From assembly GCF_000002865.3 (NCBI RefSeq), contig NW_001865066.1:274005-338004 (forward strand): a stretch of 64,000 nt of DNA, in the 5' to 3' direction. Both the position numbers and the translations under genes were made by a program. Within the stretch, counting starts at the first letter, position 1. The number at the start of each line of letters is the position of its first letter. The stretch is from Monosiga brevicollis MX1. Lineage: Eukaryota. The notes beneath the pieces were generated by a model. The model was given only the letters and a program-made list of their open reading frames with translations, was not told the DNA's origin and did not search any database. Below, in pieces: positions 18,933 to 52,621 of the stretch.

Positions 18933-20950
18933 ATGCCCTGGAAGCCCCCACCCCAACCCAAGTAAGATTGGCAGCAGCTCGCGCTCGCGCCGCCCTTTCC
19001 CAACATCGAGATGACTGCAACCCACAACCCGACTGAGTGTTTCTTGTTGTGGTCCGTGGTGTGAGGCTTGCCGAGCCCCGTTGGCTCGCCTCTCAACAGG
19101 CCCCGCCACCACCACCACCACCACCACCATCACATCCAAACCCCTTGGTCCATTTGATGTGGTTTTTTTTGTTTTGTTTTTTGACAAGTGGTCGACGCCA
19201 AGGCAAATCTGTTTGTGGAGCTGCCTTCTGGCTAGTCTCATGTTGGTCGTTGTTGCTGTATCTTCTTCGGTCACCATTGCGTTTGCTTGCACTGCCAGAT
19301 GCGCGCGCTGCGAGAAGACGGTGTATCCCACCGAGCAGTTCAAGTGTCTTGACAAGGTGTGCCTGCCGTCATCAGCCTGCAAGCTAAAGAGGCCGAAGGA
19401 TTTTGGTCAGGCCAACTCATGCTTTTTTCCATCTCGTGGTGAACGAATAGCTCTGGCACCATGGCTGCTTCAACTGCGAGATTTGCCACATCAAGCTCAC
19501 CATGAGCACGTACCGTGGCTATGAAGGCCAGCCCTACTGCAAGACGTACGCCTTTTGTTTGCTCCCTCCCCCTCGGCAAACGTGCGTCTAACAAGTCACT
19601 GATCCTGGACACCTATGCCGGCTGATGGTCCCGTGAGACAGGCACTACCCTCAGGGTAAGGCCACGCAGGTGGCGGATACCCCCGAAACGCTGCGTTTGA
19701 AGAAGCAAACCGAGCGTCAGTCCGTCGTTCAATACACCAAGAACTATCAGGCCGAAAAGGGCAAATATGTTGGTGCCGCTGATGACAAGAACATTGCCGT
19801 ACGTGTCATGTCTGTTTGCACAATGGTCTGCTCGGGGATGCGACCAAGGTCTCAAGTCGGATCGAGACAGATGGGGATTGTGACAGCACGGCCTCCACTG
19901 ATCAATCGTCATGCCATGCCAACCTGCTTGCTTCGTGGCACTTTGATCTAGTCCGCCCTGTCTAGCCAGAAGAAGGCGTCCAACCTGGGTTATCGCAGTG
20001 CCGCCGAGGCCCCGGCACCCACCAAGCCTGCCCCCGCCGCTGCTCCGGCCGCTGCTCCGGCCCCAGCTCCTGCTGCTGCTGCCCCTGCCCCTGCGCCAGC
20101 GCCCGAGGCGGCCCCAGCTCCTGCTGCCCCGGCTGTCGAGAGCGAGGACTATGTTGCTCAGTACGACTACGAGGCTGCCGACACGGACGAATGCTCCATC
20201 CAGGAGGGTGATGTCATCACTGCCGTCACCATTGTGGACGATGGCTGGGTCAGCGGCACCAACTCGCGCACCGGCCAAAGTGGTATGATCCCCAGCAACT
20301 ATGTGGTCAAGCAGAGTGAGGCTCCTGCCCCAGCTGCGCCTGCTGAGCCCGAACCCGCACCTGAGCCTGAACCCGAACCTGAACCCGAACCTGAACCCGA
20401 ACCCGAACCCGAACCTGAACCTGAACCCGAAGTGGCAGCTCCCGCTCCTGCGGATGCTGCGGCAGATGGAGAAAAGTGGAAGGCACTCTACGACTACGCC
20501 GCCCAAGATGGCGACGAGGTGTCTGTGACCGAGGGTGAGGAGGTCATTGTCCTTCAGGTCATCGACGAGGGTTGGGTACAAGCCCGCAATAGCAGTGGTG
20601 CAGAGGGCATGCTGCCCAGCAATTACATTGAGAAGGTCTGTTTCTATCGTCTCTTTTCTTTTATCCGCCGAAAGCTTGAGGAGCCAACACTAAATGCTTT
20701 GCCATCCCTTACGCCACAGGTTGGAGGTGATGCTGCCGCTGCCGCTCCTGCTCCTGCTCCTGCCGCCGGTGGCGTCGAGACGTGGTCGGCCCTTTACGAC
20801 TACGAGGCCCAAGACGGTGATGAGCTCAGCTTCCAGGCGGGAGACAAGCTCATTGACGTCGAGCAGGTCGATGACGGCTGGGCTAACGGCACTTTGCAGA
20901 GCTCGGGAGCCCGTGGCATGCTCCCCAGCAACTACATTGAGAAGGATTAA
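18933..20950 (+). CDS. LASP1: LASP-like actin-binding protein: LIM + nebulin repeats + three SH3 domains
   Basis: MPWKPPPQP|KCARCEKTVYPTEQFKCLDK|LWHHGCFNCEICHIKLTMSTYRGYEGQPYCKT|HYPQGKATQVADTPETLRLKKQTERQSVVQY (LIM plus nebulin repeat). Three SH3 domains follow (AQYDYEAADTDE..., ALYDYAAQDGDE..., ALYDYEAQDGDELSF..., each ending PSNY). Confidence 0.9.
20344..20432 (+). repeat. Coding (Pro-Glu)n hexamer repeat, SH3 linker
   Basis: gaacct/gaaccc units encoding PEPEPE. Confidence 0.9.
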
Positions 20951-24128: not shown

Positions 24129-27100
24129 TCAATCACGCGCCCATGCAAACTTATTGTCGAGGTTGCTGCTGCTGGCACGCGCGCTGCCGTTTAGGCTCTG
24201 CGCCAACGGTGAAGCATGACTCCGACTCATCCTGCGATACGTAGGCCATCCCCAGGTTCATGTGAGCTTCAGGCGCTTGACCAAACTGTCACAATGGCCA
24301 AATCGCCTGCCCCTCTTCGAGCCGACACGCACCGGGAACTCGCGCTGCTGAGATTTAGCGAGGTGGCGGGCGAGCGATTGGCCGACAAAGAGGGATCCTC
24401 GTGCCCGGACAGGTCATACACGGTGGCCAGAAAACTTTGATCATACGATCGCAGCTCGCGCAGCTCCTTGATCGCTGTATTGCCATTGAGCCATGAGCAA
24501 CCGCGAGCGCCAAAGGACTGCGCTGCCCTTTTGTCCCTTCATCCTCCCAAAGACATGGAACAAGCACCACAGGCGCGGAAGCACTACCACACACTGACCC
24601 ATGGCCATTTTGCGACGCGCTCCAAAAGTTGAGACACCCAGCTGCTTCATATCTTCCTCCGACAAGGAAAGAAACGTGCAGAGATCAACCTCTTGCTGCG
24701 CAAACACCTATCACACACACCCCACAAGTAGAAAGACGAGGCGAGATTTGAGCTGCCCGAGCATCCCGGCCGAAACCCCAACACGCGAGCCGACACATAG
24801 AGGTAGCGCTTGGCGCATGCGAGCAATTCAGGCCGGTGGGTAGCAGCGCCCACCTGCACGTAATTGTGGAGGTTCAGCTTGGCCAGCAGCTCAGGGAGGC
24901 TGCGAATATTAAAATAGGAGCGCACTTCGCCCGACACCTCGGGCATGGGCGTGGAGGGGCTGGGTTCTCGTTCCATATCCAAGTCAAAGACATCCTCGCT
25001 CGGGTGCTGGGAGTCGAGCGCATGCGCATGTCCCCCAAAGACCCCGCTACTGGCCTGACTGAGCGGGCTCAGCGGCGCTGACAGCGGGGAGACCCCAGCT
25101 TGGTGAGCATCCCCCTGCCGCTCTGAAATGTGTCCGAGCGTGCCTTGACCCAGCGCACTGGGTGCGGGTGAACTACCCGGCGCCAAGCTAGGCAAAGCAC
25201 CGTTGAAGGAGAGAGACAAAGATGGCCAGGGCCTTCCGCCCCGGCTGCCCTCCGCTGCGTCCCGCAACGCTTCGTAGGATGCGACCCCCGCGTCCTATTC
25301 GCACGCACATCCAGGCAACTGTGAGCACATTCCCTTTGCCAAGCACGTGGAAACCGAGTGTGGCTGCACCAAAAGAAGCAAAGCATGTCCTCCTCGCAAA
25401 GCACCGCCTCCCGTGTCCCGATACCTGGCCCAATGCAGACTGTTGGTGCAGGTGTGCGTCCTCCTCGGCTTGCTCTAGCGCCTGACGCTGCAGTCGCTTA
25501 AACTCAGTGGCCGGCATTGAAAACGAAAACCCATCACCCGCAAAGTAGCTGTTGCAGAACCCATGACGAGAACAGGAGAAGCGTCAGGTCCCAAAACCCG
25601 CGCATGAGCCACCACGAGGAAGAAAAAGCCTGGCCCAAGACAAAATAAAATGCCATTTACACACGCACACGCACACGCACACATAACAGCGGGGCGATGG
25701 CAAGCACAGCAAGCTCTGCCACTTTAACGATGCAGCGCGTGCGTGGGGGGAGAGGGGAGGCAGGGGAATCATCACCTGGTTGGGGCACGTGGCTTATTAA
25801 AGACAGTCTCAGCGCGAGCTTGCTCAGCCTCCAGGCGCCGCTGCTCCCAGCCGGGCTTGCGCAAATGAGGTGAGCGCGAGCCCGATTGTCGCGCCGACTC
25901 CAAACCAGGAGGTGGTGCCGATGATGCAGCAAAACCCGTTGAAGCCAATTGACCGTCCTCTCCATCATCCAGCCCCAAAATGCTGCCGTCACTGCGACTG
26001 TCGTGCAGACTGCTCTGCCGACTGGCATGCCGACTGTCCTGCCGACTATCGCGCCGACTCACCAGGGGGCTGCCTCTGCTTTGGCACTGGCTTTGGCTTT
26101 GGCTTTGGCACTGGCTTTGGCTTTGGCTTTGGCACTGGCTTTGGCTTTGGCTTTGGCTTTGGCTTCCACGACTTTGCGTGGCAAGACTCGTGCGCAACGG
26201 GGAGGGGGCAAGTGGCGAGCCCGGAGCTCGTGACTCCATGACCAAAGGATTGGGCCCTGGTCGCGGCGCCGCGGGTTGCAACCAGCGCGCGTCGTCAACA
26301 ATGACATCAAAATTGGGAGCATCAACATCCATGCTGCCATAGCCAAAATCAGGTCCACCCCCCAGCGCCCGCAAAACTGCCCGCCGCGCCCGATAGAGAT
26401 CAGATGCGGTGGCTTCGGTGGACTTGAGTGAGATGGACGCGGTATTTGCCTTCCGTCGTAGCGACAATTGCACCTGTAACTCCTGTGCGCGCAGAATCTG
26501 AGCCAGAAGGACTTCAGCGTCGATGCCTGAGCGGCCAGATTTGTCGTCCAGCTCCAGCGCCATCTCCTCCACAAGGTCAAACGTCAAGCTGATGGGCATG
26601 GTGCCCTGAATCATGTCCAGCCCAGCTCGTACACACTGAGGTGGGCCCTCGATCATCATGCCTGTATCTTGGCCCGGCATGGTAAAATACATTCTACACA
26701 GGCGCGCCAAGTGCATGCAGAGTGAGACGGCCAGCTGCCTTGGATTGTCGCAGTGACAGCTCAGAAGAGAAGAGGCACAGACAGACGTACAGGGTGCCAG
26801 TGGCGTCGCCCAGCGCCTTGAGGCCCTCTCCTGCACGGCCAGCAATGTTGCTGTGGAGGTGGCGCGGAACATCAATCTGAACACCGTATGAGCAGTGAAC
26901 CCAGGCGTGAGCGCCGACATGGGCTGCGCGAGAGCAGATGGTGAACGTTCGCCCTTCCCACCCACGCAGAGCGAGTTGATGGCTCAACTTGGCCCCTTGC
27001 AAAGGCTGATGCAATGCCTGACCTGAGCGCATAGATGATTGAGATCGGGCTCAAGACCAAAAGCTCGCTGAACGGCCTTCCAAGCTTCATGCAAAATGGA

Positions 27101-28317
27101 CATTTGATAGCGCGGGCCTGCGTTGATGAAAGAGCGGGAGCAACCAAGTTAGGCGAGGGCCAGCTGCTACACGCGCCGCCAGTCGTACTGGCCTTTGATC
27201 ATGACCATGGTGCCTTGGTTGCCAGGCTTGAAAAAAAGTGTCAGCGCGTACTCCTCGCACACGGTGCGCGCCGCCGGCGGGATATCCGTGGTGTCGATTC
27301 GTTCAACGCCACGCAAGTGAAACCTGCACACCGCACGCATGGGTCGGAGCAGGGGATGGAGTGAGGAGGCTGGTCGCAGCGGCGCACGCATTGCATGGGC
27401 CTAATGACCTGTGCGCAGTAACCGGTGCCAAGGGTAGTCGTGGGCTGAATGGCCGGAAATGGAATGAACCCACCAGAACACAATCGCCATGAGCCCTCGA
27501 ATTTGACGACGAGCGTGCTCCACGGCGTCGGGCTGGCCAGAGATGCTGACCTGTATGGTGGTTTAAAACAAGGAGTCGGTGAGAGCAAACGGGCGGCATG
27601 CTGGGATCTGACAGCCATGGGACAGACCAGAATACCTGGTCTTTGGCGCCTTGGTTAGCAGCCGACATGATGGGCTGGCCACGGCGCACGTGATCGGGAA
27701 AGTGACAATGACAGCCAGTGGTTGAGGATACGCGTTTCATATTCTCGCCTTTGCGGCCGATGATGTAAAAGTGCTGTTCGTTGACAATTTCCAATCGCAA
27801 GACCATGCGATGGCTACGTGTGTCACAGATGCGCAAGATCTCCTGCCGAGCTGCCAGCATCTGTGCGCCTTGATCGGATCGAGCTAAAATGCGAATGGTT
27901 GGATCTAAAAGGAGGCAGCAGTATCGCGTTGACCGGCCGCATGATGAGGCAGGTGAGCTGGGGTTGGCTAGCGTACACAAGCACACACAAGACTTGGCCG
28001 AGCTGGCAAAGCTTTCGTTGTTGCACATGTCGACATACCCTTTTTGGAGCGAGCACCAATCTTAAAGTTGCGATCCACCGTCACAGCTTGGATGCCATGC
28101 TTGCGGGCAATAGCGTCAAAGACATGCTCCCCTGCATGTACAAAGCGCGGAGCTGGCAAAGTTCATCAATAAGAGCCCAAACAAGAGAAAGCCAGCTACA
28201 ACCGCGAGCCCGCGACACTGCGGCTCCGGCCGGTCATTCGCGCATGCCCGCAGAAGATTGCAGGCCGACCCCGGACAGTCACCTGTCCGAAGCAGCAGGG
28301 CTGGTTCTCTCACACAT

Positions 28318-28362
<45 letters not shown>

Positions 28363-28463
28363 CAGTGGAGCAGAGCATGGTGCCTACCTTGTAACACATA
28401 CTCCAAGGTGCGACGCTCAATGCGCACCCGATCCTCCACCAGCCCAGACATGACGTCGCTCAT
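24129..28463 (-). CDS. BICC1: Bicaudal-C-like KH-repeat + SAM RNA-binding protein
   Basis: VEDRVRIERRTLEYVLQG N-terminus; KH motifs HFYIIGRKGENMKRVSSTTGCHCHFPD...QVSISG and HSNIAGRAGEGLKALGDATGT; Ser-rich linker; SAM LPELLAKLNLHNY|VFAQQEVDLCTFLSLSEEDMKQLGVSTFGARRKM.MAIKEL, close to the BICC1 SAM pattern. Confidence 0.85.
26078..26165 (-). repeat. Coding hexamer repeat encoding SQSQSQCQ in the BicC linker
   Basis: TTTGGC units with ACTGGC variants (24-nt higher-order unit) on the + strand. Confidence 0.9.
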
Positions 28464-29192
28464 TTTGTTGTTTTTTCGCTCCCCGGGAGGCGGTCCCGGC
28501 ACGACCCTGCCACCCAGCGTTGAGACACGCTCAAACCCCACACGTAATCGTAATCAACCTCTTCCCCTCTGCAACCTGCGCCTTCCTCCCTCGTCCCAAT
28601 GCCTCGGGCTCCTCCACGACCGCCAACACCGCCGCTGCCTCGACGCGCGCGACACAGAGAGAGAGAGAGAGACAGAGAGGCAGAGAGGCAGAGAATGTGT
28701 GAATGAGAGAGCGAGAACTAGAGAGCCAGAGAGAGACGAGACGAAAATAGCGCAAAAACAAAGGAAATAAGAAGGTGATCAGAGATATACACTCGGACAA
28801 AAGCAGTAATAGAGACAACACTCACTCACTCACACACACACTCTCTCTCTTTCCTTCTTTCGGGTAAAATGTATTTTACTTTATCCATGTCGATCAAGCG
28901 TACTGGAGCAGGATGGGGAGGCGATGGAGATGGGAAAGACGATCAGCATGGGTGTGGCCAGCGTGGGTGTTGCGGGTGGACAAGCGCGCTGCATCGACCG
29001 TGCTAGGCACATGGAACAGCAGAAAAAAAAAAGAAAAAAAAACCCCCCATTCCCTCCTGTACGCGCTTCTTTGGAAGGAAAAGGTCAACCAGAGAGGGCC
29101 TGCCCATAGGAGCGGAAACAATGTCAATTTGCATGCCTGTGTGCATGTGAGAGAGGGTTCAGAGGTGAGGAGACGCGGGTGCGCTGGGTGGA

Positions 29193-32100
29193 TCAGTTGA
29201 CGGCGTTTCGTTCGAGCCAGGCAGTAAAGGCGCGATTCTCTTGGTGGCCAGGCCTGAGCGGAGATGCTGGTGTGGGTTGGGAGGGAGCGGGCCGTGGGCC
29301 GGCAAACGCGTTCGCCTCGAGGGGCGGAAATCCAACGGGAGGGGTGGTGGAGCCACGATTCGGGTCGACGTAAGCCTCAAAGCTCAACTCCTCGGGTGAG
29401 GTCGCGCCTGAGCGAGGCTTCTCGGGCTCGGTGTACGCCTGGACCGGCTCATCAAACCCCGGAAATCCCGCCGGCGGAGGCTCCTGACCATGGCGCTGGG
29501 CCTGCTGCAGCAGAGTTTGAGACACACCTTGGCTGCTGTCCACGCGAGCAGCTCGACCGAATTGCTTGCTACGGTCCTCGAATGACAAGGCGCGTGTGCT
29601 GCGCATCACCTCGGGCAGCGCAATGACTCGTCGCTTGCGGCGACGATGGTCCTCCTCTAGAGCCGTGGCCGGTGCTGAGGAGGGGTGGCCTTCTGGCATC
29701 GCCGCTCTTGTGGTTTTGGACCTCTCTGACCTGGGCGAGCCGTCCCCCTGATTTGCTGGGGGCAGGACGGCCTGTTCCGATGCTTCGATGCCAAAGTCGG
29801 CCCCGTTCGCCACTAAGAGCTCGACGACAGCACGACCGCTGGGATCAGCTGATGCGTGCTTAATGAACCCTTCGCAGGTCAACCCTGCCACAACAGACGT
29901 CGTCCGTGAGGGAAAGATCAAAGCAGCACGTCGCTACGAGAGATGAACGGGACCCACGTACCCTCTCGTCGAACACGATCGTCCAACGCTTTTCGAAACT
30001 GCCGATACAAAGTCTCCTTGTCGGCCGGCGGGAAAGGTGCGCGCGTGGTGTTGAGTCGACAAAGGTCATACAACACATACACGGCCCGACGCAGCTGAGC
30101 CCCGGCCAGCAACTTCTCATCGTGCTCATCGTGCTCGGCTATCCAAAGGGAGGTACGGTTGTAAGGCGAGCGCACGATCGACGAACGGTACTTGCAGCCA
30201 TGGTAGCCGCAGGCAAGGCCACCACGGGGTGGTCCTGCAGTCGTGCAAAAACAATGGCACTGACCAAACGTATCAAAAAGCAGCGTCAGGCGATCAACGG
30301 CACTGCCACGAACGCAAAGCGCCAGCATGCCCACATAGAGGTCGGTGTGAAGACGCTCCGAGGTGACGGACAAGGCTTGCTCCGTTAGGCCTGCATCACC
30401 CATGGGGGCAGGGTCTGAGAGCAGGGGGGCGACCGGTCTACACGAGGACAAGCTTGATGCTGATCCGGAGAGCATGGTTTGCCTCAACTTACCAAAGTGC
30501 TGCTCCCAAGGCCATTGCTTGTGGACGCTAGAGCTCATGATGGTGTGAAGACTATGAATGTCCACAACGCCTGAAGGGAGCACACGGCGGCTTGCGTTAC
30601 GCAGCGCAGCGCAAGCAAGACATGGACAAACGAGCAATGACAAAAGGCATCAATCATCACGCGCCGAACCTTGCAAGGCCATGTCGTGTAGCAAGCGAGC
30701 CGCAGTGCGCAGCTCGAGAACGGTGAGACTGCAGCCCTGGAACAAGTCTGTAGCCACACGCCCATCCTATTAGACCAGGATAACGCGTGAGCCAAAAGCA
30801 ATGGGAAATAGACAGCGTCAGGGCACAAGGTAATTGAGTGTCACCCACAACCCGTGCCCCACCTTAAAAAGAGCCCCGGCGTCAAAGACCAGCTGCTCGT
30901 GCCCTGCATGGTGCTGGGCCTTGTCCACCAGACCAAATCGGCTAGCTAGAACCCAAGTGCGCAACGCATGGACCCCAAAGGGCAGCGGAGTGACGGGGCC
31001 CAAACGCAGTGATGGCAGAGTCTGACCTTGAGCCAGATGATTCTCGTCATAGTTGTGCATTCGGGCCTCCAGGAGCTCCATATCGTGTCGGGCCAGCACG
31101 TCGACGCGGCGCTGCTCCTGGCCAATAGCCAGCAGCCGCCGACTCAGAGCAAAAAGCAAAACCAGAAACACGAGCAAGGTTATCAATGCGACGGCAAGGG
31201 CCGCCACGGGCCCGGGCCTTTGGGTCCATGTGGTGGACGAGCTCGCTGCGACTGCGACCGCCTCGGTGGAAGTAGTGCTGGGAAAAAGAGTGGAGGCTGG
31301 TGTTGTTGCCAAACTCACCACTGGCCACGGCGATATGTTGGACTCTGGCACCACGCAGAAGAGGGGGGGGGAAGCAGCACAACCATTCGAGGTGTGTGAG
31401 CACATGTTTCCGCGTCGTGCATTCAAGGCCCGCAAGGATGCGGCCGATGGATTGAGGCACGATGTGGTTCTGAGAACAAGGCATTGCGTGGGTTGCTGGC
31501 AAGTAACTGTGTGGTTGTGATGAGACAATGGGTTGATGTGTGAAACCACGCACCAGCGGCAAGAAAGACATCGGCCTCGATCTGCAGGTGGTCGACAGCA
31601 CCGCCTCCATCAGTGGCGGTCAGGTTCACCATGATCGTGTAGCGTCCCGGGGGACCTGTGGCAAAGACGAGGCCCGTGGTTGGATCGGCCTGTACAGCCA
31701 AAGTGGATGGGTCGCTGGGATCCGTGATGGCTAGGGCACTATAACGAATTTGACCCCAAGGCGAGGTGGGAGCATCGGGATCCTGGGTTTGGATTAGCGG
31801 TCCAAGAGCCGTAGCAGCCGGGCCCAACTGGGAGAGGCGCACAGATGATGACGCGTGGGCAAAGGTGACCGGTTCGTTGATATCAGTTACCAGTAAGCGC
31901 AGACGCCAGTTGATGGTCCATGAATCAGTGGCATTGACATGGCAAAGAGCCGACAGGAGGACGGGTATGTCAGGCTGAGTTTCGTAATCGAGCTGCCACC
32001 AGCCCTGCAGGAGCTGGTGGTCGGAGCTGGCAGTCAGGTTCAAGACATGGGGGATTGAGCTGTTGACGACGATGAGACCGGACAGGTTGGCCGCTGGAGT

Positions 32101-33145
32101 GAGAGCTGCGAGGTGCCAGGGCACGGCAGTGTTCTCGGGCAGAAAGATGGTGAGGGGAGTGTCCGGGTCCAGGAGCTCCGCTCCATTGAACACCAAACCG
32201 CAACCTATATTGCAAAGCATGAGAATGAGTGACGACGCAACCACCTACACCACCACAAGTCACGAAAATGGCAGAAGGTAGTTGCACCACACGCACCCGG
32301 GGGTGAGCTGCCGATGCCACTGGTAACCCGAAACAGCGAGGCGAAAAGGAGGATGAGAAGCGGGGTCGGCCGGTGAGGATGGTGGTGCCGACGGTCATCC
32401 TGCACCGGCCGATGGAGGCGGCCTGGCGCGCAGCCTGCCCAGCGGTGACCAAGCCATGACCCCATCACCCGAGGTCCCCCACACGTTCGGCACTGCAATC
32501 CGTTGACCAGGCGGCCCAAGCGTTGTGAGGACAGACGAGGGCCTGATGGCACTCGGTGCCAGGGGCTGGAGCACCGAAGGGGGGTGGCGCATACGAGCAA
32601 GCACCACGGGGAGCCGCCTTAAACAATGGTGGCAGCCCGCTATCCGCCAGTCAGCGGGCCACCAGACAGACGATCACACAACGGGCCAAGGTACAGCCGG
32701 CGCCAGGCAGCATGGACGGGTGCCAGGGATTTAATGGAGGCGGGTGAGCGTGGCACTTTATACCGGATGCCAGATGCCAGATGCCAGCGACACCAACAAC
32801 AACAGCAACAATCCACTCGGCGCCAAATCCTTGTCCCAGTCACACCATTGATGGGTTTCGAGGTTATATACGCAAAAATAATAGTTATTGCAGTTTTGTA
32901 TATGGTCTTGTCTTCTTAAAGTGTATCAAATATTCATGTTTGTGTAGGGTGTGTTGCGGATGGGTTTTGGCCTTGTCAATGGTCCGGTCGCTGTGCATCT
33001 GGATGTACCTGTCCATGCTTGCTGCCCCGGCTCTGTCAAAGCTCAAGACGAGGTGGGCGTGCGAGCGCGAGACAGAGAGACAAAAGAGAGAGAGAAAGAG
33101 AGCGCTGAAGCCCAAGGCACGCTTGCCGACACCTCCAGATGCCAT
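29193..33145 (-). CDS. Single-pass cadherin-repeat protein with a cytoplasmic NCS/KChIP-like EF-hand domain
   Basis: Exon 32204-31554 has the cadherin motifs LPENT, LDYETQ, VTDINEPVTF, QDPD, IRYS and ATDGG. Exon 31344-30863 has an S/T stalk and the TM ALAVALITLLVFLVLLFALSRR. In-phase exons 30766-30670, 30570-30493, 30390-30265, 30138-29962 and 29884-29193 encode an NCS-like domain. The 5' end (hydrophobic stretches near 32830-32770 and 33145-33050) is not resolved. Confidence 0.7.
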
Positions 33146-33399
33146 TTGACGTATGGGTGCGGTGTCGTCTCATCATAATAATAATTTACATGTTAGTCTT
33201 CTACGGTAAATACAATCAGACAGGAGGTGCAGTTGAATTCGTATGTTCTCTCAGAGTTGGCCTGAATTGGGTCCAGGGCAAGTTTAGTTGCTTCGATCTT
33301 TGGCCGTTGCAAGGGCCGTTGTCTCTGGAGCGCCGTTACCAAAGAAATTCGCGGCCTGTTGTCCAATTGGCCTAGAAATTGTGAAATGACTCGCGCAGC

Positions 33400-34295
33400 A
33401 AGATGTTCATGCTCGCTGGTGGCATGCAGGGAGCTGAGCGAGGGAATTGCCCGTCAGGCCGTCTGCTGTGTCAGCTGCTATCTGATGTACTGTCGCACCG
33501 GGTCTCAAAAGATGAATCCATCGTGCCTCTTGAGGTAGGGGTACTTCGTATCGCCACATGTCCAAGCCAGCTGGCGCTGAACTCAAAGTGCGCCATCTGA
33601 ATACCTTTGTCAAGAACGTACTGGCTTTCCGGTATAAGTCCGTTCCACTCGCTTGCCAGGCTTGCACAAGGAAGCTGGGAAGTTGACATTGACGAGGTCC
33701 ACAATGTCTTTGAGAGTCCAAACGTATTGCTTCCGTATTGTGTGTTTGATCGGATCAAAATAGGCACCGCAGTGCTTCTTGGTGTGCCCCAACAACCATG
33801 AGGTGTAGTTTGATGCTTTTTTTTTCAGATCCACCAGGCTATGCCACGCGAGATACTGCAGCACGAAAAGCGGTTCTTGTTCTGAACTACACGATTGTGT
33901 GAGTCGATGGCATGGCTTCCCATGAGTCGGAGGTTCAGTTTCGTTGTGTTTGTTGGCAGACTCTGTATCGATTTATCCTGCTCGCGGTCAGCGCCCGACA
34001 GACGGTAGACTGGGTAGTCTTCAGCGTACCGCACCAAAAACGCCAGTGCAATTCGAGTGTGTTGGCGTCGATGCCCTGTGGCTCTGCCTGAGCTTGGACG
34101 GTAGTCGTTAATCAGGAAAGCGTTGACTGTCGTAAACGCAGAAACACCACCCAGGCACATCTGTCGCCCGTGTATCACGTATACTGTAGTGATGCGCCCA
34201 GATTGCTCCGATTTGGATGCGCCAGCGACTCATTGCGCTTCTTGGCGGAACTAGAGCCAGAGGTTCAATTCTTCTACACAGGTCTCAGCGCGTCG
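33400..34295 (-). pseudogene. Decayed, internally deleted DNA-transposase-like fragment
   Basis: Frameshifted pieces RITTVYVIHGRQMC, ALAFLVRYAEDY...IQSLPTNTTK, SHNRVVQNKNRF/LQYLAWHSLVDL...LLGHTKKHCGAYFDPIK...TLKDIVDLVN and AHFEFSAS. They resemble, from memory, the DNCxxQNKN...GHTK transposase-like family (DUF7869-type). No introns or TIRs seen. Confidence 0.55.
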
Positions 34296-35020: not shown

Positions 35021-35804
35021 GTTCTCGACGTGGGGTTGGCTGTGCCTTTTTCCATCTCAAGGTACTGCGCCATCACAGGAGGCAGAAACGGCAGGCGTCG
35101 ACACCTTGCGTGTCCTTCTGTTGGGTCGGGGTTGGTCATGACTAAATGGCAGGCACCGATGCGGGTCGCTTGAGTTGATATCTTGCCCGTGGATGCCCTT
35201 GATTCTCGACCGCTCCTATTTTCGCACAAGCCTGTCTGCCATTGTGCACGATGCGCACACCGTCTCGTGCTTTGAAATGGGAGGCCGTGCTAACACATGA
35301 TGATCCTTGTTGACCAGCTCGCAAACTCATGGAATCGGTGTTGCGCGTCTTGTGTTGGTTCTGATAGAAAGCTTCGTCTTTCCTCCTTTCAGCCGATTTT
35401 TTTTTTTTAACAACGTAAGCCTGCCCGAGAATGATGCGCAAATTGTTCTGCCAACGATACACGCAAATGAGTTTGATACCTGCAGCGAGGCGTAGTGAAG
35501 AGCAGACATAATTTTGACTTTGGAAACGAGGGATGGGCCGGCAGTATGCCACACAGGCCTCGCCGCCACAGTCGCATTGCGTGTTTTGTGATGGCTGCTG
35601 TGCTGGGTAACCTTTATCTCATAACTTGGCAAACATAATTTGTTACGCCATGGGCGTCTCACATCGCGCGGGGATTCTCTTTGTGTTGTGTGCCACCACG
35701 GAAGCTGTTCATTTTTTTTGACACACCTCAACCCTTCCAAGCCTGCTCGCGCTCACGACTTGCTCTCTGCGTCTGGTACCATGGTGGCTTTTACAGCATT
35801 CGAC

Positions 35805-36281
35805 ATGGCTGATGAGGAGTTTCATGCCGCCGACGCCGGTGCTTCGGACGTCTACCCCATGCAGTGCTCGGCTCTGCGCAAGAACGGCCATGTCGTCATC
35901 AAGGGCCGTCCCTGCAAGATTGTGGACATGTCCACCTCCAAGACTGGCAAGCACGGTCACGCCAAGGTCCACTTGACCGCCATTGATATCTTCACTGGCA
36001 AGAAGCTCGAGGATATCTGCCCCTCCACCCACAACATGAACGTCCCTAACGTTCGTCGTACTGAGTACGAGCTTGTGGACATTGATGATGAGGGCTTCAT
36101 GTCCCTCATGACCACCGATGAGTCTGGTGACACCCGCGAGGACATTCAGCTCGATGAGTCCAGCGAAATTGGTCAGGAGATCAAGAGCAAGTTCGAGGAT
36201 GACAGCGATGACATCCTTGTCGTCATCATCCAGTCCGCCATGGGTGAGGAGGCCCCCGTTGCCGTCAAGACCAGCAAGTAA
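35805..36281 (+). CDS. EIF5A: Eukaryotic translation factor eIF5A
   Basis: [57 protein letters not shown] contains the hypusination motif [12 protein letters not shown]. Intronless CDS with strong codon bias; acceptor ttacag 8 nt upstream of the ATG. Confidence 0.98.
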
Positions 36282-37451: not shown

Positions 37452-38898
37452 TCAATGAGCGGGCGGGGCTGGACGGCGATCAGCTAAAATTTGCTCTCGA
37501 TAGAGCCGCGCCACCGTCTCGTAGGTATAGAAGACCAGCACGGCATTGGGAACGGAGCGCATGAGATGCGTGGACATGCCGGCATACAAGGCACGCCAGC
37601 CCTCCTCGCGACAGGTGCGGACGAGTGCGTCGAAAAAGCCACGGTAGGCGAGTTGGCCTGGCGTAGGCAACTCCCGGAGCCGTGTCCGAGCCACCTCTGG
37701 CGTTCCAAAAGCAAGAGAGCACCAGGGTGAGCAACAGCCGATTCAAAGATTCTCAAGCGTCTAAAATGGGTGAGGAGAGGCGCGCTACATCGACGCGAGA
37801 CTCACCGTGAGGATATGTCAACACACAAGCGATCGTCTTGGCGGATATGCTGCTCAGAATTAGCCGCCCATCTGTCGCACGTCAAGAGCGCAACGCGAAG
37901 AGGCGGCGGTCACCATCGGGGGATTCAAACGCGTGAGAGGCAAGCATTGGAATCGAGCTTGCTCACCGCATTGGCCGAGACAATGGAAACTGATGACAGT
38001 GCGAGCGCGCCTTACCCTTGTAGCTCGCAGACACATCGTCGGCGCCGAAGCTAGTCTTAAAGTGCTCATAGAGCGTAAACTGCAGAGCCGATTCCACCAC
38101 GCCTGCTCGGTTCAACGCGATAGGCATGAGAGACGACGACGACGGGAGAGGACAAGATGAGCCCGACCACGAGTGAGCGATACAAAACTGATGCAACATG
38201 ATATGGCCAGGGCCACACACCGGCATAGGAGGCTGTGAGACCGGTGAAGAGACCGCGCCATCCTTGTTCTTTCATGGTGATGCGCAGCACGCTTTGGACC
38301 GTGACGGGCTTGTTGACCTCGTTTTGCATGAGCTGCAGGCGGGTTTTAATCACCCAGATGGGATTGGTGGCCGAGGCCGCCACCACGCCTGCAGCCAGAC
38401 CGCTAAGCATGCGCACCCCATGCGAATCAGGGTTTCCGTTGGGGCCAGCAATCACGGGCTTGGTGGCGTTGTACACGCTAAAGTAGCAGGCGCGTGATGG
38501 TACGATGCCTACAAGGGTGGGTACAAGACCACGCCACAAGGCCCGGATACCCTCCCGATGCAGCGTCATGCGAAGCGCATTGTATGTGGCGCTGTATTGC
38601 TGCCAGCCGGTCGCTGCCCCCTGCCCACGCATGGCTGCCAGCTCTTGTTGCAGGAGCAGCCGATGCTGGCGGGACTGCATCCGTGTCTTGACCACCTGCA
38701 CCCGATGATCGAACAGAGAGGAAAGTGAGCAATCAGCAATCGATCAAGGTGAAAGGCAGACACAGGTGAGGGGGAGAGGTGGGACCAGGGGCGTACATCT
38801 AGCGGGTTGGTAATCGTGGTCCCCACGAGGGCGCCCAGCCCGCCACCGAGAAAGTGAATGTGAAACGGCAAGGGTATGTCCTCGATCGAGGGCGCCAT
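37452..38898 (-). CDS. SLC25A36: Mitochondrial pyrimidine-nucleotide carrier (RIM2/SLC25A33/36 subfamily)
   Basis: Three carrier repeats TNPLD|VVKTRMQ, TNPIWVIKTRLQL and TYPHE|VARTRLRE, with the subfamily-type motifs GIVPSRACYF, GLTASYAG and HLMRSVPN. Confidence 0.9.
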
Positions 38899-42921: not shown

Positions 42922-45900
42922 TCAAAAATGAACCACGACGGCCGTCACATCATCAATGTAGCCGCCACCTTCCTGCATCCACATGCGCCGCGCAGCCTTG
43001 ACAATAGCTTGCGCAGCATCCTGCGACGAGGCGCTACGTGCTACCAGTTGTACAATCTATACCAGGCACATGCAGGACGTAGTAGGTACTGTGAGGCCAA
43101 CACCAAGCGCCCGAACACACACATTACGAAATCGGCACCCTCCTGGTACTTGGCCAAAAACAATATCACCTGGGCATTGGACAGATGATCAAAAACGCCA
43201 TCCGAGCCCAAAACGATAAAGTGGTCCTGCGAGTCAAGCGTCTTCTCAAGTTTCCGATCCAGCCCGAGTGGCACATCACTGGTAAGCGGATGCTGATATG
43301 CGATATGGCGAGCGATGCTGCTTCTTGTCCAAAGCCCCGGTCCCCGGCCCAGATACTGCCTGCCTGCCTGCCTGCCCACCCAGTTCATCCAAGATGCGTG
43401 CCCCCTTTTTTGTTTGCCGTACGTGAATTTGGAGCTCCGGTTCAGCCACAACGCCAGCCTCAAAGAGGTGAAAGTCACCCACGCTCCTGGATAAAGCCAG
43501 ACCACCCTCCTACAGCACCACAGCAATAATGCACAAACACAGGTGAGGCTTCCTGGCCACCAGACACGGGCGAGAGGGGCGAAATAGAAGCGAAGCAGGG
43601 TGTCGCACCTGTTGACGTCGGCGCCAAACACGCGCCGGTCCTTGAAAGCCCCAGCCACGGACGCGGGTCGGCTCCACGTATCCGCCTGCACGCTGAATGC
43701 GCTGGCGCTCACCAGGGTCGCTGGGCTTGTGATCCCGTGACAGTGGGATGGGTTGATAGCGGGAGCCACCCAAACACCGGCCCAATACACAGCGCGAGTC
43801 ACCCACATTGGCAACGATGAGCTGTCGACCATCGGGGGTTCGGGCGCACACCACAGCAGTGGTGCCCGACTCTCGCGCATCGATGGTAGACTTGCGTAAT
43901 TTGGCAGCCGTGGACACGATGCCGTTGACCAAGGCCTCAGACAACGCCTGATTCTGGCGATAGCTCTCTAAAATCTCGACACCCAGAGTGCTTTCTGCAA
44001 AACCTGAGACCTTGCGTCCGTTCACACCGTGGCCATCCATGACGGCTGCCAAAAAGGGCTACAAAGAGAAGCGGCAGGTCTGGTGAGGGCAGGCAAAGGT
44101 CCAAGGGCTGCCCCCCCAAATTGAATATAGCCAGCAAGCCAAAACCCGGTCCCACCAGAGCAGAGCTGCCTTCGTAGACAAGAAAGCCATCTTGATTTTC
44201 CTTGGGATTCCCAGCATATCCACCTCCCATCGAGTAGGCCCCATATTCTGGTACTTGGATCGTGGGAGACGTCGACGGAGCTTCTGGAGTAGGAGTGGCT
44301 GGAACAGGCGTTAAGCCTTCCATATCTGCCCCAAGAGAGTACAAGCATAGTGCCAGTGTTACCATACAAGCAAAGAAAAAACAACGACAATAACAACAAC
44401 AACCAAAACACAAGGACACCGCGCTCCGCCACGTTGCGCCAGACCAGCTCCAAACGAACCAAAAGCGTAACCCTTGCTATCACGTCGGTTGATGGGCAGA
44501 TCCTCCCCCTCCTGAGAAATACAAAAAAGAGCGCCAAAGAGGTAGCAACAGAGGGCACAGTCAAGTCATGAAGCGATGTGGCAACAGGGGATATAGGGTG
44601 GTGATTGTGCATACAAAACGGCTGACCTCGAGCAAGGCCGGCGAGCTGAAGCGCCGGGTGAGAGAACTTCGTCGATTGCGAGGCTCAGTAGGAATGGTGG
44701 GTACCAGACCATCAGGCTGCAGTGGTCCCACTATTACAGAGCTCGGTGGGGTCTGGCGCGAGGCAAGCACATCCTCTTCAACCACACGCAGTGACGGTGT
44801 GCCACGGCCCGGGACCGAGTCCAGACGAGGTGGACTCTCGCGTCTATCCAAGCCACTCAAAGATGGTTCCTGCAAAGCGAGCCCCAAGCAAGGCCACAAA
44901 TAGTATCAGTGAGTCGAGCACCGTCGCGGCTGACGCGAGATCTTGTGGAGCCAAGGCATTGACCTGATTAAGGGTGGGAGACATCATGTGTTGACGGCGA
45001 ATGTTGTATCCGGCAGGTGTGACGGAGCGACGGTTTTCGGGGGGTCGTGGCGATCGTGGCGTTAAAGTAGAGGGCTCGGCAGTTGGAGGCACGCCTTGAC
45101 CATCACCCGGCAAGTTCCAGGCAAAGGGGCCGCGGGATGTCGGTCGAGCCGACTGTTGTGAGGCAGGCCGTGGGCGAGTGTGTGGGTCTCGGGAGTTGCG
45201 GGCTGGGCTCGCGCTAATGGCAAGACCGGCACCGGGGGAATTGAGGCGGCGTTGCGTTTCCGAGTCGGGGGGTGCTTCACCAGTCTGAGCAAAAAGAGGC
45301 AAAAGCCGGCCACTGGGTGGACGCTGGCGCATGCTCTGCGAGCGAAGGCGAGCGCTGCGTGCAATGCGAGTATCTGCGGCGTGTCGCTCCAAATTGGCTT
45401 CGGCTACGGCGCTGGCAGGGGTAGGTCCGGGGCTTGGGCTGCCGGGTGGCGGACTGGCGCGCAAAGCAGCCCGGGCAGCAGCGGCGGCGGCAGCGGTGGT
45501 GGAGGTCGCGGGAGCAGGTCCACCACCGTTCTTAGCAGGGGGTGAAGGAACGAGGCCAGCCTGAGTGGCGCCAGAGGCACCCGTGGCAGTACCCGTCCAA
45601 CGTTGCACCGGAGACACCGGCTCGGAGTAGGAAAGACTCGACACAGGTGAAGCTAACAAAGGGTCTCGGGTCGGGGCCTGGCCATGTAGGGTATGGACCG
45701 TTTCCATAATTACTGGCTGTGGTGTCGAGCGCACTGATTGGCTAATTCGAGGACCCGCACCATGGCCACGAATGGCCAAAGAGGGCTTGGTAGCCCCACT
45801 TCCGTTCTCTGAACCAAGAAGACCAATGGGGGAGCTGGCGGAGAGCGGGGATGCCCCAAGCCCCACAGATTGGAGTGGGAGAGATTGCATGCTCAGTTGT

Positions 45901-47135: not shown

Positions 47136-48443
47136 TCAGCGAAGCTCGTCGACGTTAGAGAGTTTGGCAATCTCGCTCAAAATGCGCTTGCGGTGCAACG
47201 AGTTGTCAATGCCCATGTCAATCAAGTCTTGATCGGTCAGAGCCAACAAGACCGAGCCATCAATCGCGTGGCTTAGGAATCCTTTGGCATACAGGCGAAA
47301 CTGTGGATGAATGCGTTCCACCCAGGACTTGACCTGATCCTCCGTCCAGGACGCGGCAGCTGGTTTACGTCTTACGCTGCTTGCAAAAGGGGCTCGAGTC
47401 GCCGGGTGTGCTGCTTTACCATCACGAATGGAGGGCGAGGGCAGACTGCGTGGCCACTTAACCTTCAGTTTCCGGCGCTGGGCGCTATATTGGGCCACGA
47501 GGGCTTGAAGTTGAGCCACGCCCGTCGCTGTGAGCGGATTCTCATCCAAGTCCAATTCACGCAAGTAAGGTTGATGGGTCGGGGCCAAAATCGGCAACGC
47601 CTTTTGTAGTGCCTCATCCGTCACGGCATTATGATCCAGCTCCAGCTCCCGCACCTAATTTGATCCAAACGAGAAAGCCACAAACCAACCCAGTAAAACG
47701 TGAGATGCGCGAGGCCACGGTGTTTAAAATGGGCGTTGACTCTGGATTTGGGGTCCATGAGCACCAGCGAGTCACGGCTAGACACTGGGTCCCTTCAAGA
47801 TACGAACAAGTGGACACGACTGACCGTGGTGCTCGATAAAGCTTCAATCAGGGCCTCAAAGCCCGACGCAGCAATGGCATTCCACGACAAATCCAGCTCG
47901 TGCAACGAGGTGGGCAAGGCAGCGGCCAAAGCAGTTACACCCACATCACCAATGGCATTGTGGCCCAAGTTGAGTGCTCGTAGCGCCGAGGTCTTGGCAA
48001 GAAAAGATGCCACAATGTCTGCCCCCTCGTCGCCCAGCTGCAAGTTCGTCAGCTCGAGACTGTACAGGTCTGTTGGGCGGTCGACGAGCGCCTCTATCAA
48101 AGCCTCTGTCATGGCCTCATCAAAGGGGATGTCGTTCAATTCTAGCTTGCGCACACCTGCATTGGCGCGCAGCGCGGCCACAAAACTGATAAACGTCTCC
48201 GAGTCGGCACTCACAGGCGCTGCGCGCTTCAGCTCCAGCTCATTGCATCTATGTTCGCCGCAAGCGCACGGCCTCACGTCAATCACCACACGCGGTACAG
48301 ACAATGCAAGCAAGCAGACGTCAATCCCACCGAGTCGCCAAAATGCGCTGCGCAGCCTCCCACGTCCGAGCTTCACAGTCACTCCATGCCACCACTCCGC
48401 CAACCACCAAGCAGCTCATAACGAGAACCCCGCGCCACCACAT
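47136..48443 (-). CDS. Signal-peptide protein with RI-type leucine-rich repeats and a C-terminal SAM domain
   Basis: Exons 48443-48331, 48248-47825 and 47654-47136 join in phase. MWWRGVLVMSCLVVGGVVA is signal-like; LRRs LRALNLGHNAIGDVGVTALA, LHELDLSWNAIAASG and LRELDLDENPLT; SAM WTEDQVKSWVERI...YAKGFLSHAIDGSVLLALTDQDLIDMGIDNSLHRKRILSEI; ends NVDELR*. Confidence 0.85.
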
Positions 48444-51542: not shown

Positions 51543-52621
51543 ATGGAGACGGAGGGTGGGGACCAACAGCAGCCGCCGCCAGAGGAGGGCCCGCATGTGT
51601 CGCCCGAGTTTACACGCTGGTATGTGGTTGGGTGCAAATGGGGTCTGGTGGCTCGTGTTCTTCCATGCTGGTCGATGGTGCTCACTCACTGACCCTTTCG
51701 TTCTGACAGGACGGGACTGGGTGACCCGGAGGTGGCTGAGTTGGTGCGCGATGCGTGCTTTGCCACTTTTGGTGGCTTCTTCTTTGGTGGCGTGACTGGT
51801 ATCAAGAATGCCTCGGCTGAATTTATCGAGGAGAATCGAACTACCAAGTTCAAAAACCAGGTGCACATGCAGAGTGAGATGAACAATGCCGTCCTGCGTC
51901 GCTTCGCCTTCCGAGGCAGCCGCTGGGGCTGGCAAATTGGTCTATTCTACACTCTTTTCAAGTATGTATACATCCAAACCACTCTGCAATATGGCTTGTC
52001 GGCGTGTTGTAGTTTGTGGATTGCCGATGGCGCTGCCTCACATGCCTTGTTTCTCGAGCGTAGACTGGGTGAGCACACGCTCCAGCATCAGCGGCAACAA
52101 CGCGATGTTCTCAACATGGTCGGCTCTGGTGGTAAGCTTTGCGTCCAACCTCTTTTTGTTTTGTTCTTGCTCCATCTAATGATGGGCACGCGCGGCGGCA
52201 TCACTTGTTGTTGATGATCACTTTTATTGGAGCTGGACTGATTGTCTGTGCTGATAACCTTTAATACGCAACTTTTTTCTGAAACTTGTGATGCCAGTCA
52301 TTGGCATCTCGTGTGCTTGATTATGTTCATGTCTTCTCATTGGTGCTTTGGCTATTGGCTCCTGCTTAACCGATAGGTGCTGTTGGCACCCTGTTTGGCC
52401 TGCGCCATGGCCCCCGTGGCGCTGGTGCCGGTCTCTTGGTAGGGGCTGGCCTCAGTCTGTGGCTGGGTTTGATCCTTCAAGGTTCATGGATTGTCGAGAA
52501 GTACATCAAGAAGGAGCAAGCTGCGCTGGCCTGCAACGAGGACACAGCTAACATTGACGCAGATGCTCTCCTCGCAACTTCAAATGATGAAGCGAGCAGC
52601 ACAACCGAGATCACTGCCTGA
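51543..52621 (+). CDS. TIMMDC1: Complex I assembly factor TIMMDC1 (Tim17 family)
   Basis: GGFFFGGVTGIKNASAEFIEENRTTKFKNQVHMQSEMNNAVLRRFAFRGSRWGWQIGLFYTLF, then LQHQRQQRDVLNMVGSG|GAVGTLFGLRHGPRGAGAGLLVGAGL; this matches the TIMMDC1 pattern (G.RWGW, G.RG..AG). Confidence 0.8.

What the first reader, a model, noticed from the sequence alone, without database searches (positions are those of the whole stretch)
29193..33145. Cadherin fused to a cytoplasmic neuronal-calcium-sensor (KChIP/recoverin)-like domain
Seen: what the ORF track shows as separate ORFs joins through six consecutive GT-AG introns with matching phases (1,0,1,1,1,1). The product has about two cadherin repeats, an S/T stalk, one TM helix, then CSLTVLELRTAARLLHDMALQGVVDIHSLHTIM...LYVGMLALCVRGSAVDRLTLLFDTF...LLAGAQLRRAVYVLYDL...GLTCEGFIKHASADP. 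Established: NCS proteins have the collinear pattern FT..EL..LY..F....PSGVV...F..IY / LS...RG...EKL...F..YD / EM..IV.AIYD / G.L..EEFI.....DP; they are normally soluble or myristoylated, and cadherin tails normally bind catenins or carry SH2/PTP domains. The EF loops here lack the canonical DxDxDG. Inference: a receptor coupling extracellular cadherin repeats to a membrane-tethered, perhaps Ca2+-insensitive, NCS-fold module that could bind channels or kinases. I do not recall this architecture being described.
Basis: partly seen in the sequence, partly recalled or inferred. Interest (0 to 1): 0.85.

Follow-up and report, generated by a model that had tools for sequence, protein, structure and literature searches.

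The report
Small divergent cadherin, orphan helical tail
This is an expressed, mis-annotated Monosiga brevicollis gene for a small membrane protein with two very divergent cadherin repeats outside the cell and an unrecognisable helical region inside, whose proposed likeness to neuronal calcium sensors is only weakly supported.

Summary
The window is Monosiga brevicollis. RNA-type contigs from two runs of one study give one 2947-nt transcript, 32860 to 29113 on the minus strand, with seven GT-AG introns. The ORF is 823 aa. It has a probable signal peptide, two cadherin repeats, an S/T stalk, one TM helix and 482 cytoplasmic residues.

The cadherin reading holds, although Pfam's Cadherin model misses it:
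- The only 3 non-self hits among 1.84 billion representatives are multi-cadherin proteins.
- Language-model features, my own repeat profile and a moderate AlphaFold model all agree.

The NCS reading is not established:
- There is no Pfam EF-hand, PDB or library hit.
- There is no canonical Ca2+ loop.
- The fold prediction failed, with pLDDT 37.
- An independent NCS profile gives only a weak collinear match to aa 516-613, at 4.7 bits with 5 of 3000 shuffles as good, and nothing for the N-terminal half.

The public 1487-aa model wrongly fuses this gene to a Bicaudal-C-like neighbour.

The parts
29113..32860 (-). Whole transcript (8 exons, 2947 nt spliced)
   Evidence: Contigs of X3 (29113-32860) and X4 (29112-32842) with 7 joints.
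32297..32860 (-). Exon 1: a 395-nt leader with uATGs at 32848, 32713 (20-aa uORF) and 32592 (65-aa uORF). The ATG is at 32465. It encodes aa 1-56 with hydrophobic core PLLILLFASLF, a probable signal peptide.
   Evidence: The signal-peptide reading is inference from the sequence; no predictor was run.
31858..32190 (-). Cadherin repeat 1 (about aa 62-172), with PEN (79), LDYE (128) and DINEP (164)
   Evidence: In-register alignment to cadherin repeats.
31555..31857 (-). Cadherin repeat 2 (about aa 173-273), with DPD (198) and TATDGGG (252). It has no terminal DxNDN.
   Evidence: Best-matched stretch of the 3 library hits, aa 127-265. My own cadherin profile matches aa 192-257. The model is all-beta. 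Foldseek returns cadherins.
31214..31344 (-). S/T-rich stalk (aa 274-317; 18 of 44 residues S/T)
31142..31213 (-). Transmembrane helix (aa 318-341), followed by SRR
   Evidence: Kyte-Doolittle 19-residue windows reach 3.16.
30863..31141 (-). Juxtamembrane cytoplasmic region (aa 342-434), no family
   Evidence: Pfam gives only a sub-threshold MSC match at E 0.051.
29790..30766 (-). Helical cytoplasmic region, aa 435-625, encoded by exons 4-8 (introns included in this span). The C-terminal half, aa 516-613, is weakly NCS-like.
   Evidence: The AlphaFold model is all-helical but at pLDDT 37. The NCS profile scores 4.7 bits on aa 516-613.
29196..29789 (-). Pro/Ala/Arg-rich tail (aa 626-823) with RRRKRR (674), YTEP (744) and YVDP (765). 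The stop codon is 29195-29193.
   Evidence: Composition and motifs. No Pfam family.
30767..30862 (-). Intron 3 (96 nt, phase 0), which holds the in-frame TGA near 30818
   Evidence: Joint 30765|30862, cut +1

Best explanation
This is a real, expressed, lineage-restricted type I membrane protein of Monosiga brevicollis, 823 aa long.

Outside the cell it carries two highly divergent cadherin (EC) repeats. All the acidic motif positions that in cadherins bind Ca2+ between repeats are kept: PEN, LDYE, DINEP, DPD, ATD. The repeats sit on a short mucin-like S/T stalk.

Inside the cell there are about 280 residues of helical sequence with no detectable relatives, then a disordered Pro/Ala/Arg-rich tail of about 200 residues with two YxxP motifs.

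The most likely way it works is inferred, not shown. The Ca2+-stiffened two-repeat head binds an external ligand, such as prey, substrate or another cell. The helical region and the tail recruit cytoplasmic partners, possibly after tyrosine phosphorylation.

The fold of the helical region is unresolved. A degenerate EF-hand pair that does not bind Ca2+, resembling the C-terminal lobe of NCS proteins, is the leading candidate for aa 516-613 at about 0.4. A full four-EF-hand NCS module is less likely, at about 0.2.
For: Transcript and splicing.

Organism and public model.

Cadherin repeats:
- Of the 4 proteins with E<=0.001 among 1.84 billion representatives, 1 is the gene's own model. The other 3 (E 1.4e-6, 9.2e-6, 1.5e-4) match aa 127-265. 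They carry 21, 21 and 5 Pfam Cadherin stretches.
- BLASTP alignments are in register on ENTA, LDYE, DxNExP, DxD..Y and A.DGGG.
- All language-model nearest clusters shown are cadherin clusters, with score 0.95.
- A repeat profile built from 63 repeats of the three hits scores the ectodomain 15.9 bits, against a maximum of 7.2 in 2000 shuffles.
- The AlphaFold2 model is all-beta, with pLDDT 59 and pTM 0.46. It finds 326 PDB chains at E<=0.001, and all 38 rows listed are cadherin-superfamily ectodomains, the best at 1.8e-9.

Topology: the TM helix; 6 of 7 N-x-S/T sequons lie before the TM; SRR follows the helix.

Orphan cytoplasmic part.

Weak NCS-like signal in the C-terminal half. Language-model neighbours include clusters in which 11-31% of members carry EF-hand families.
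Against: - Pfam's Cadherin model gives no hit even at E<=10.
- The three library E-values are full-sequence scores over 4-7 stretches in tandem-repeat targets, which inflates them.
- The ectodomain model is only moderately confident, and its 4-row alignment consisted of cadherins, which may bias it.
- The signal peptide has an unusually long charged n-region, and three upstream ATGs precede the start, so the N-terminus is not certain.
- No orthologue was found anywhere, so conservation cannot vouch for function.
- The function, the ligand and the role of the YxxP motifs are pure inference.
- The RNA nature of X3 and X4 is the tool's guess and comes from one study.
Confidence: 0.75

Rival explanations
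1. One reading: the cytoplasmic region aa 445-612 is a complete four-EF-hand module of the NCS/KChIP/recoverin type. It is tethered by the TM helix instead of a myristoyl group, is blind to Ca2+, and docks channels or kinases.
For:
- An independent NCS profile picks the same register for blocks 2-4, HMM positions 87-181 on aa 513-612, i-E 0.0021 for one sequence; 3 of 3000 shuffles and 0 of 208 real decoy windows are as good.
- From my recall of NCS-1, not from a call, the spacing of the blocks there (67, 31, 42) is close to the spacing here (67, 34, 45).
- Language-model neighbours include clusters with a minority of EF-hand members.
Against: - The blocks were chosen after seeing the sequence, so overstates the case.
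- The NCS profile gives no match at all to the N-terminal half, aa 435-512.
- hhalign gives P 0.024 and probability 2%.
- The best decoy reached 3.6 bits against 4.0.
- No Pfam EF-hand hit at E<=10, and no NCS, KChIP, recoverin or calcineurin B chain among the PDB hits at E<=10.
- A calcineurin-B-like profile gives nothing: 669 of 3000 shuffles are as good.
- No canonical loop, and no similarity between the two halves: 185 of 1000 shuffles are as good.
- The fold was not obtained.
Confidence: 0.2
2. The helical region is some other fold, such as an ankyrin-like or other alpha-solenoid or a novel helical bundle, and the NCS likeness is a chance match of amphipathic helices.
For: - The only PDB sequence hits of the 262-aa piece are 4 designed or consensus ankyrin-repeat proteins (E 0.019 to 1). 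All align to one segment, KHASADPSGRAVVELLVANGADFGIEAS, which is the very segment read as the NCS C-terminus.
- All family searches are empty.
- 23 of the 30 language-model neighbours have no family.
Against: - Each ankyrin stretch alone is insignificant, the best at 7.5 bits. The E-value is a sum over four copies of one consensus repeat.
- Pfam ankyrin models give nothing at E<=10.
- Only one such repeat is visible, and ankyrin repeats do not fold singly (established knowledge).
Confidence: 0.35
3. The public 1487-aa model is right: one protein joins the cadherin-like part to KH and SAM domains of Bicaudal-C type and has no TM helix.
For: The model exists in public databases and its KH/SAM part is genuine.
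Against: - The RNA-type contigs of both runs end at 29113/29112, after the in-frame TGA at 29195-29193.
- The KH/SAM gene lies on separate contigs ending at 28640, and none covers 28759-29009.
- The model skips the stalk and TM helix, which the contigs include. It reads parts of introns 2 and 6 as coding.
Confidence: 0.03

Closest known systems
The 23 catalogued Monosiga brevicollis cadherins (MbCDH1-23; Abedin and King 2008 as cited, and Table S4 of PMC4265756, where I saw 23 of 23 rows)
   Same: Same organism. They have cadherin repeats on single-pass membrane proteins with lineage-specific cytoplasmic parts and no catenin-binding tail.
   Different: - All 23 are 1222 aa or longer. None has the 1487-aa length of the public model.
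- Their listed cytoplasmic extras are only SH2 (MbCDH1, 2, 12) and PTPc (MbCDH7, 21).
- This protein is 823 aa with two repeats that fall below the Pfam threshold, and it appears not to be in that list. I could not map accession numbers, so this rests on lengths and domains.
Protocadherins and classical cadherins with solved ectodomains (for example 6vfv, 4zpm, 3q2w)
   Same: Two tandem EC-type beta sandwiches, and the inter-repeat acidic motifs.
   Different: - 13-24% identity, TM-scores only 0.33-0.45, and an uncertain model.
- Only two repeats, and no Cadherin_C tail.
Neuronal calcium sensor family (NCS-1, hippocalcin-like; represented here by 11 proteins encoded on metagenome loci L008, L009, L019, L025, L028, L039, L084, L087, L088, L090, L096)
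   Same: A weak collinear match of aa 516-613 to profile positions 90-182, that is the RG linker, EF3, EF4 and the DPS end.
   Different: - No N-terminal-lobe match.
- No Ca2+-binding loops.
- No N-terminal myristoylation site, because the region is internal.
- 3-4 residue insertions.
- The score is far below any database threshold.
Calsyntenin/alcadein (recalled, not tested here)
   Same: A type I protein with two cadherin repeats and a cytoplasmic part linked to Ca2+.
   Different: Calsyntenin has an LNS domain and an acidic, unstructured Ca2+-binding tail, not a helical domain. No similarity was found in any search here.

Membership tests
Cadherin superfamily | Match to the Pfam Cadherin model (PF00028) | tested here: not met
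   No hit at E<=1 on the exon or at E<=10 on the public model.
Cadherin superfamily | Significant sequence similarity to bona fide EC repeats, in register | tested here: met
   3 of 3 non-self library hits are multi-cadherin proteins. BLASTP gives 5e-9 and 1e-7 pairwise. My own repeat profile scores 15.9 bits against at most 7.2 in 2000 shuffles.
Cadherin superfamily | Inter-repeat Ca2+-binding motifs (XEX, DXE, DXNDN, DXD, XDX; names recalled) | tested here: met
   PEN79, LDYE128, DINEP164, DPD198 and ATD253-255 align with the same columns of three cadherins. D129, E131, D164, N166, D198, D200 and D255 are invariant in A1. Binding itself was not tested.
Cadherin superfamily | EC beta-sandwich fold | tested here: inconclusive
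   The model is all-beta with pLDDT 59 and pTM 0.46. Foldseek finds 326 hits at E<=0.001 and all 38 listed are cadherins, but TM-scores are 0.33-0.45 and the alignment rows were cadherins.
Classical cadherins | Catenin-binding cytoplasmic tail (Cadherin_C) | tested here: not met
   No such Pfam hit.
EF-hand / NCS family | Match to Pfam EF-hand models | tested here: not met
   None at E<=10.
EF-hand / NCS family | Canonical 12-residue Ca2+ loop | tested here: not met
   0 matches to a recalled PROSITE-type pattern and 0 to a relaxed one.
EF-hand / NCS family | Similarity to an NCS sequence profile over the whole domain | tested here: inconclusive
   The C-terminal half scores 4.7 bits, with 5 of 3000 shuffles as good. 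The N-terminal half has no match. hhalign gives P 0.024.
EF-hand / NCS family | Four helix-loop-helix units in a compact fold | tested here: inconclusive
   AlphaFold2 gave pLDDT 37 and only secondary structure: 13 helices.
EF-hand / NCS family | N-terminal myristoylation signal (feature recalled) | tested here: not met
   The region is internal, starting 94 residues after a TM helix.
Ankyrin repeats | Several tandem 33-residue repeats matching Pfam Ank models | tested here: not met
   No Pfam hit. One 28-residue consensus-like segment only.

The most novel reading that the evidence does not exclude
A pre-metazoan cadherin whose cytoplasmic domain descends from a neuronal-calcium-sensor-type EF-hand protein, has lost Ca2+ binding, and is anchored by a transmembrane helix instead of a lipid. 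That would join two animal-type signalling modules in a combination not catalogued in any cadherin list I could read.
Probability: 0.2. Interest if true: 0.6.

Novelty: new variant of a known kind. Interest (0 to 1): 0.35.

Why it matters
Choanoflagellate cadherins are used to reason about how animal adhesion and signalling proteins arose. This locus adds a small cadherin that the standard domain models miss. It is also hidden inside a wrongly fused public gene model, which suggests that the published count of 23 is a lower bound. Its cytoplasmic part has no relatives in 1.84 billion representative proteins, so it is either a fast-evolving remnant of a known fold or a new one. If the weak NCS-like signal proved real, it would be an unreported domain pairing. 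As it stands, the practical value is a corrected gene model and a candidate for structural work.

Tried and rejected
- Word-based homologue searches of the cytoplasmic region found only the gene's own model, or nothing: near lengths and shorter lengths at E<=10.
- AlphaFold2 of the cytoplasmic piece gave pLDDT 37. This was residues 367-628 of the public model, which carry a spurious 32-residue insert from a misread intron. A Foldseek search with that model gave 0 matches at E<=0.001 and unrelated helical proteins. This is meaningless and I did not use it.
- Complex prediction with the two halves as separate chains gave no answer, score 0.02. It counts neither for nor against.
- An internal-repeat test between the halves and between the four putative hands found nothing above shuffles.
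- A first decoy set drawn from the metagenome loci was contaminated with EF-hand proteins and I discarded it. I replaced it with 208 windows from this window and the cadherin hits.
- A calcineurin-B-like profile of 3 sequences gave no signal.
- Dystroglycan-like reading: a paper reports no dystroglycan-like proteins in choanoflagellates (PMC4582122, passages), and nothing here points to it.
- Nichols et al. 2012 could not be read. Abedin and King 2008 was not seen.
Full report
Identity of the locus. The largest exon of the finding (31555-32205, minus strand) is 100% identical to one public protein, the uncharacterised MONBRDRAFT_28864 of Monosiga brevicollis MX1, 1487 aa (sequence). It was the only hit among 5075 candidates. 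Pfam finds KH and SAM domains of Bicaudal-C type only in aa 818-1412 of that model, and nothing significant in its first 700 residues.

Gene structure. I laid four public runs on 26500-34000.
- Contigs of X3 and X4 (one study; their RNA status is the tool's guess) form one record of 2947 and 2930 nt. It covers 29113-32860 and has seven skipped intervals.
- Run X1 covers introns and intergenic DNA colinearly with no differences, so it behaves as the DNA control.
- Placing the cuts on GT..AG gives introns 32296-32205, 31553-31345, 30862-30767, 30669-30571, 30492-30391, 30264-30139 and 29961-29885.
- The longest ORF of the spliced RNA is 823 codons, from ATG 32465 to the stop at 29195-29193.
- Intron phases are 1,1,0,1,1,1,1.
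- The in-frame TGA near 30818 lies inside intron 3 and is spliced out.
- The KH/SAM gene downstream lies on separate contigs that end at 28640, and nothing covers 28759-29009 in X3/X4. The public model is therefore a false fusion. It also skips the stalk and TM helix and reads pieces of introns 2 and 6 as protein.

Ectodomain.
- Pfam's Cadherin model does not see it, and no PDB chain matches by sequence.
- An exhaustive phmmer search of residues 1-705 of the public model against 1.84 billion representatives returned 4 proteins at E<=0.001. One is the model itself. The other three, at 1.4e-6, 9.2e-6 and 1.5e-4, all match aa 127-265. All three are multi-cadherin proteins with 21, 21 and 5 Pfam Cadherin stretches.
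- These E-values are sums over 4-7 stretches in tandem-repeat targets and are therefore generous.
- The pairwise alignments are long and in register on every cadherin landmark. In a four-row alignment, D129, E131, D164, N166, F171, D198, D200, Y211 and D255 are invariant (numbering).
- A repeat profile that I built from 63 repeats of the three hits, without the query, scores the ectodomain 15.9 bits. The maximum in 2000 shuffles was 7.2 and the reversed sequence scored -0.4. Repeat 2 carries most of the score.
- Language-model features put it among cadherin clusters, with score 0.95 and all shown hits cadherin.
- AlphaFold2 on the four-row alignment gave an all-beta model with pLDDT 59 and pTM 0.46. 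Foldseek found 326 PDB chains at E<=0.001, and all 38 rows listed are cadherin-superfamily ectodomains aligned over about 220 columns. TM-scores are only 0.33-0.45. The alignment rows were cadherins, so this is not fully independent.
- Taken together, two divergent EC repeats are well supported, at about 0.9.
- The stalk (18 of 44 residues S/T), the TM helix (aa 318-341), the SRR after it, and 6 of 7 N-glycosylation sequons lying before it all fit a type I orientation.
- The signal peptide is inferred from the sequence only.

Cytoplasmic region. Nothing recognises it:
- Pfam at E<=10 finds nothing.
- PDB sequences at E<=10 give nothing in this region.
- The representative library gives no hit to this part.
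- Word-based searches find nothing: only the gene's own model among 4271 candidates, and none of 3192 candidates at E<=10.
- With the 262-aa piece alone, the only PDB hits are 4 designed or consensus ankyrin-repeat proteins (E 0.019-1). They align to one 28-residue segment, and each stretch alone is insignificant.
- There is no canonical EF-hand loop and no similarity between the two halves.
- AlphaFold2 without relatives gave pLDDT 37. Only its helical secondary structure, 13 helices, can be quoted.
- Language-model neighbours are mostly unnamed clusters (23 of 30). A few have 11-31% of members carrying EF-hand families, with scores 0.89-0.92. This is a lead.

A fair test of the NCS idea. But those blocks were written after seeing the sequence.

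To get an independent yardstick, I scanned metagenome contigs with a degenerate pattern for a short EF-hand motif. Among the 119 loci I found 11 ORFs of 175-197 aa that begin MGxxxSK (10 of the 11 carry CPxG) and are plainly NCS proteins. I built a profile from them. Against the true spliced region aa 435-630:
- It scores 4.0 bits. 3 of 3000 shuffles are as good, the reversed sequence gets no hit, and 0 of 208 real decoy windows are as good, the best reaching 3.6.
- Split up, the C-terminal half scores 4.7 bits, with 5 of 3000 shuffles as good. The N-terminal half, the juxtamembrane part and the tail get nothing.
- hhalign gives P 0.024 and probability 2%.
- A calcineurin-B-like profile gives nothing.

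There is therefore a reproducible but weak signal, confined to the half that would be EF3, EF4 and the C-terminal helix. It would not survive correction for a search over many families. I put a degenerate EF-hand pair at about 0.4 and a full NCS-type four-hand module at about 0.2.

Literature.
- No paper in the library holds the locus tag (0 papers).
- A search for M. brevicollis + cadherin + EF-hand gave 5 papers. Judged by title and abstract only, none is about such a protein.
- A six-term search gave 52 papers with at least 5 of the 6 terms, of which 15 were listed. I read passages of one of them (PMC13245172). Its single EF-hand mention is alpha-actinin.
- Table S4 of PMC4265756 lists 23 M. 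brevicollis cadherins. I saw all 23 rows. All are 1222 aa or longer, none is 1487 aa, and the cytoplasmic extras are only SH2 and PTPc. File 1 of that paper's supplements was not searched.
- PMC4265756 (passages) states that choanoflagellate cadherins lack recognisable catenin-binding tails and that their functions are unknown.

Verdict. The NCS half remains an untested lead with a small objective signal. The locus is a modestly interesting, lineage-specific variant of the known choanoflagellate cadherin theme.

Noticed in passing
window 26500-32465 (-): The public 1487-aa model MONBRDRAFT_28864 is a chimera of two genes. The Bicaudal-C-like KH/SAM gene is transcribed separately, on contigs ending at 28640. 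The model also omits the TM helix of the upstream gene.
   Followed up: yes
window 27118-27192 (-): One intron of the Bicaudal-C-like gene (joint 27114|27190, skips 75) cannot be placed on GT-AG. The only canonical placement is GC-AG.
   Followed up: partly
window 32466-32860 (-): The 395-nt leader holds three upstream ATGs: 32848 (2 codons), 32713 (a 20-aa hydrophobic uORF) and 32592 (a 65-aa uORF overlapping the main ATG out of frame). Translation of the main ORF may need leaky scanning.
   Followed up: partly
window 30139-30862 (-): Four consecutive introns have lengths divisible by three (96, 99, 102, 126). The 102- and 126-nt ones are stop-free in frame (ORF 29918-30649 runs through exons 5-7), so their retention would keep the reading frame.
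   Followed up: no
window 29778-29861 (-), aa 602-629: A single segment resembles the ankyrin-repeat consensus (..HA.A....VVELL...GAD). It gives the only PDB sequence hits of the cytoplasmic piece (E 0.019-1).
   Followed up: partly
window 29361-29435 (-) and about 29628-29645 (-): The disordered tail has two YxxP motifs (YTEP at aa 744, YVDP at aa 765) flanked by GFP(G/P) motifs, and a polybasic RRRKRR at aa 674. These are possible phosphotyrosine docking sites in an organism rich in tyrosine kinases. This is inference only.
   Followed up: no
window 28305-28369, 28641-28687, 28813-28863: Simple-sequence repeats, (CA)n and (GA/CT)-rich, lie in the intergenic stretch between the two genes. Contigs of the runs break there.
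   Followed up: no
whole window: Neighbouring ORFs carry ordinary eukaryotic families: UPF3 (3339-3827), ribosomal L17 (11613-12113), three SH3 domains (19952-20947), eIF5A (35625-36278), mitochondrial carrier (38069-38743), PP2C (43513-44058), SAM+LRR (47139-48415), ATP:guanido phosphotransferase (49027-50787), Tim17 (51693-52211) and HA2 helicase (56501-57001). None has an EF-hand at E<=1e-4 (I scanned 72 of the 140 ORFs of 130 aa or more).
   Followed up: partly
runs X8, X9: Two marine metatranscriptome runs hold 7-9% of the sampled words of the locus.
   Followed up: no
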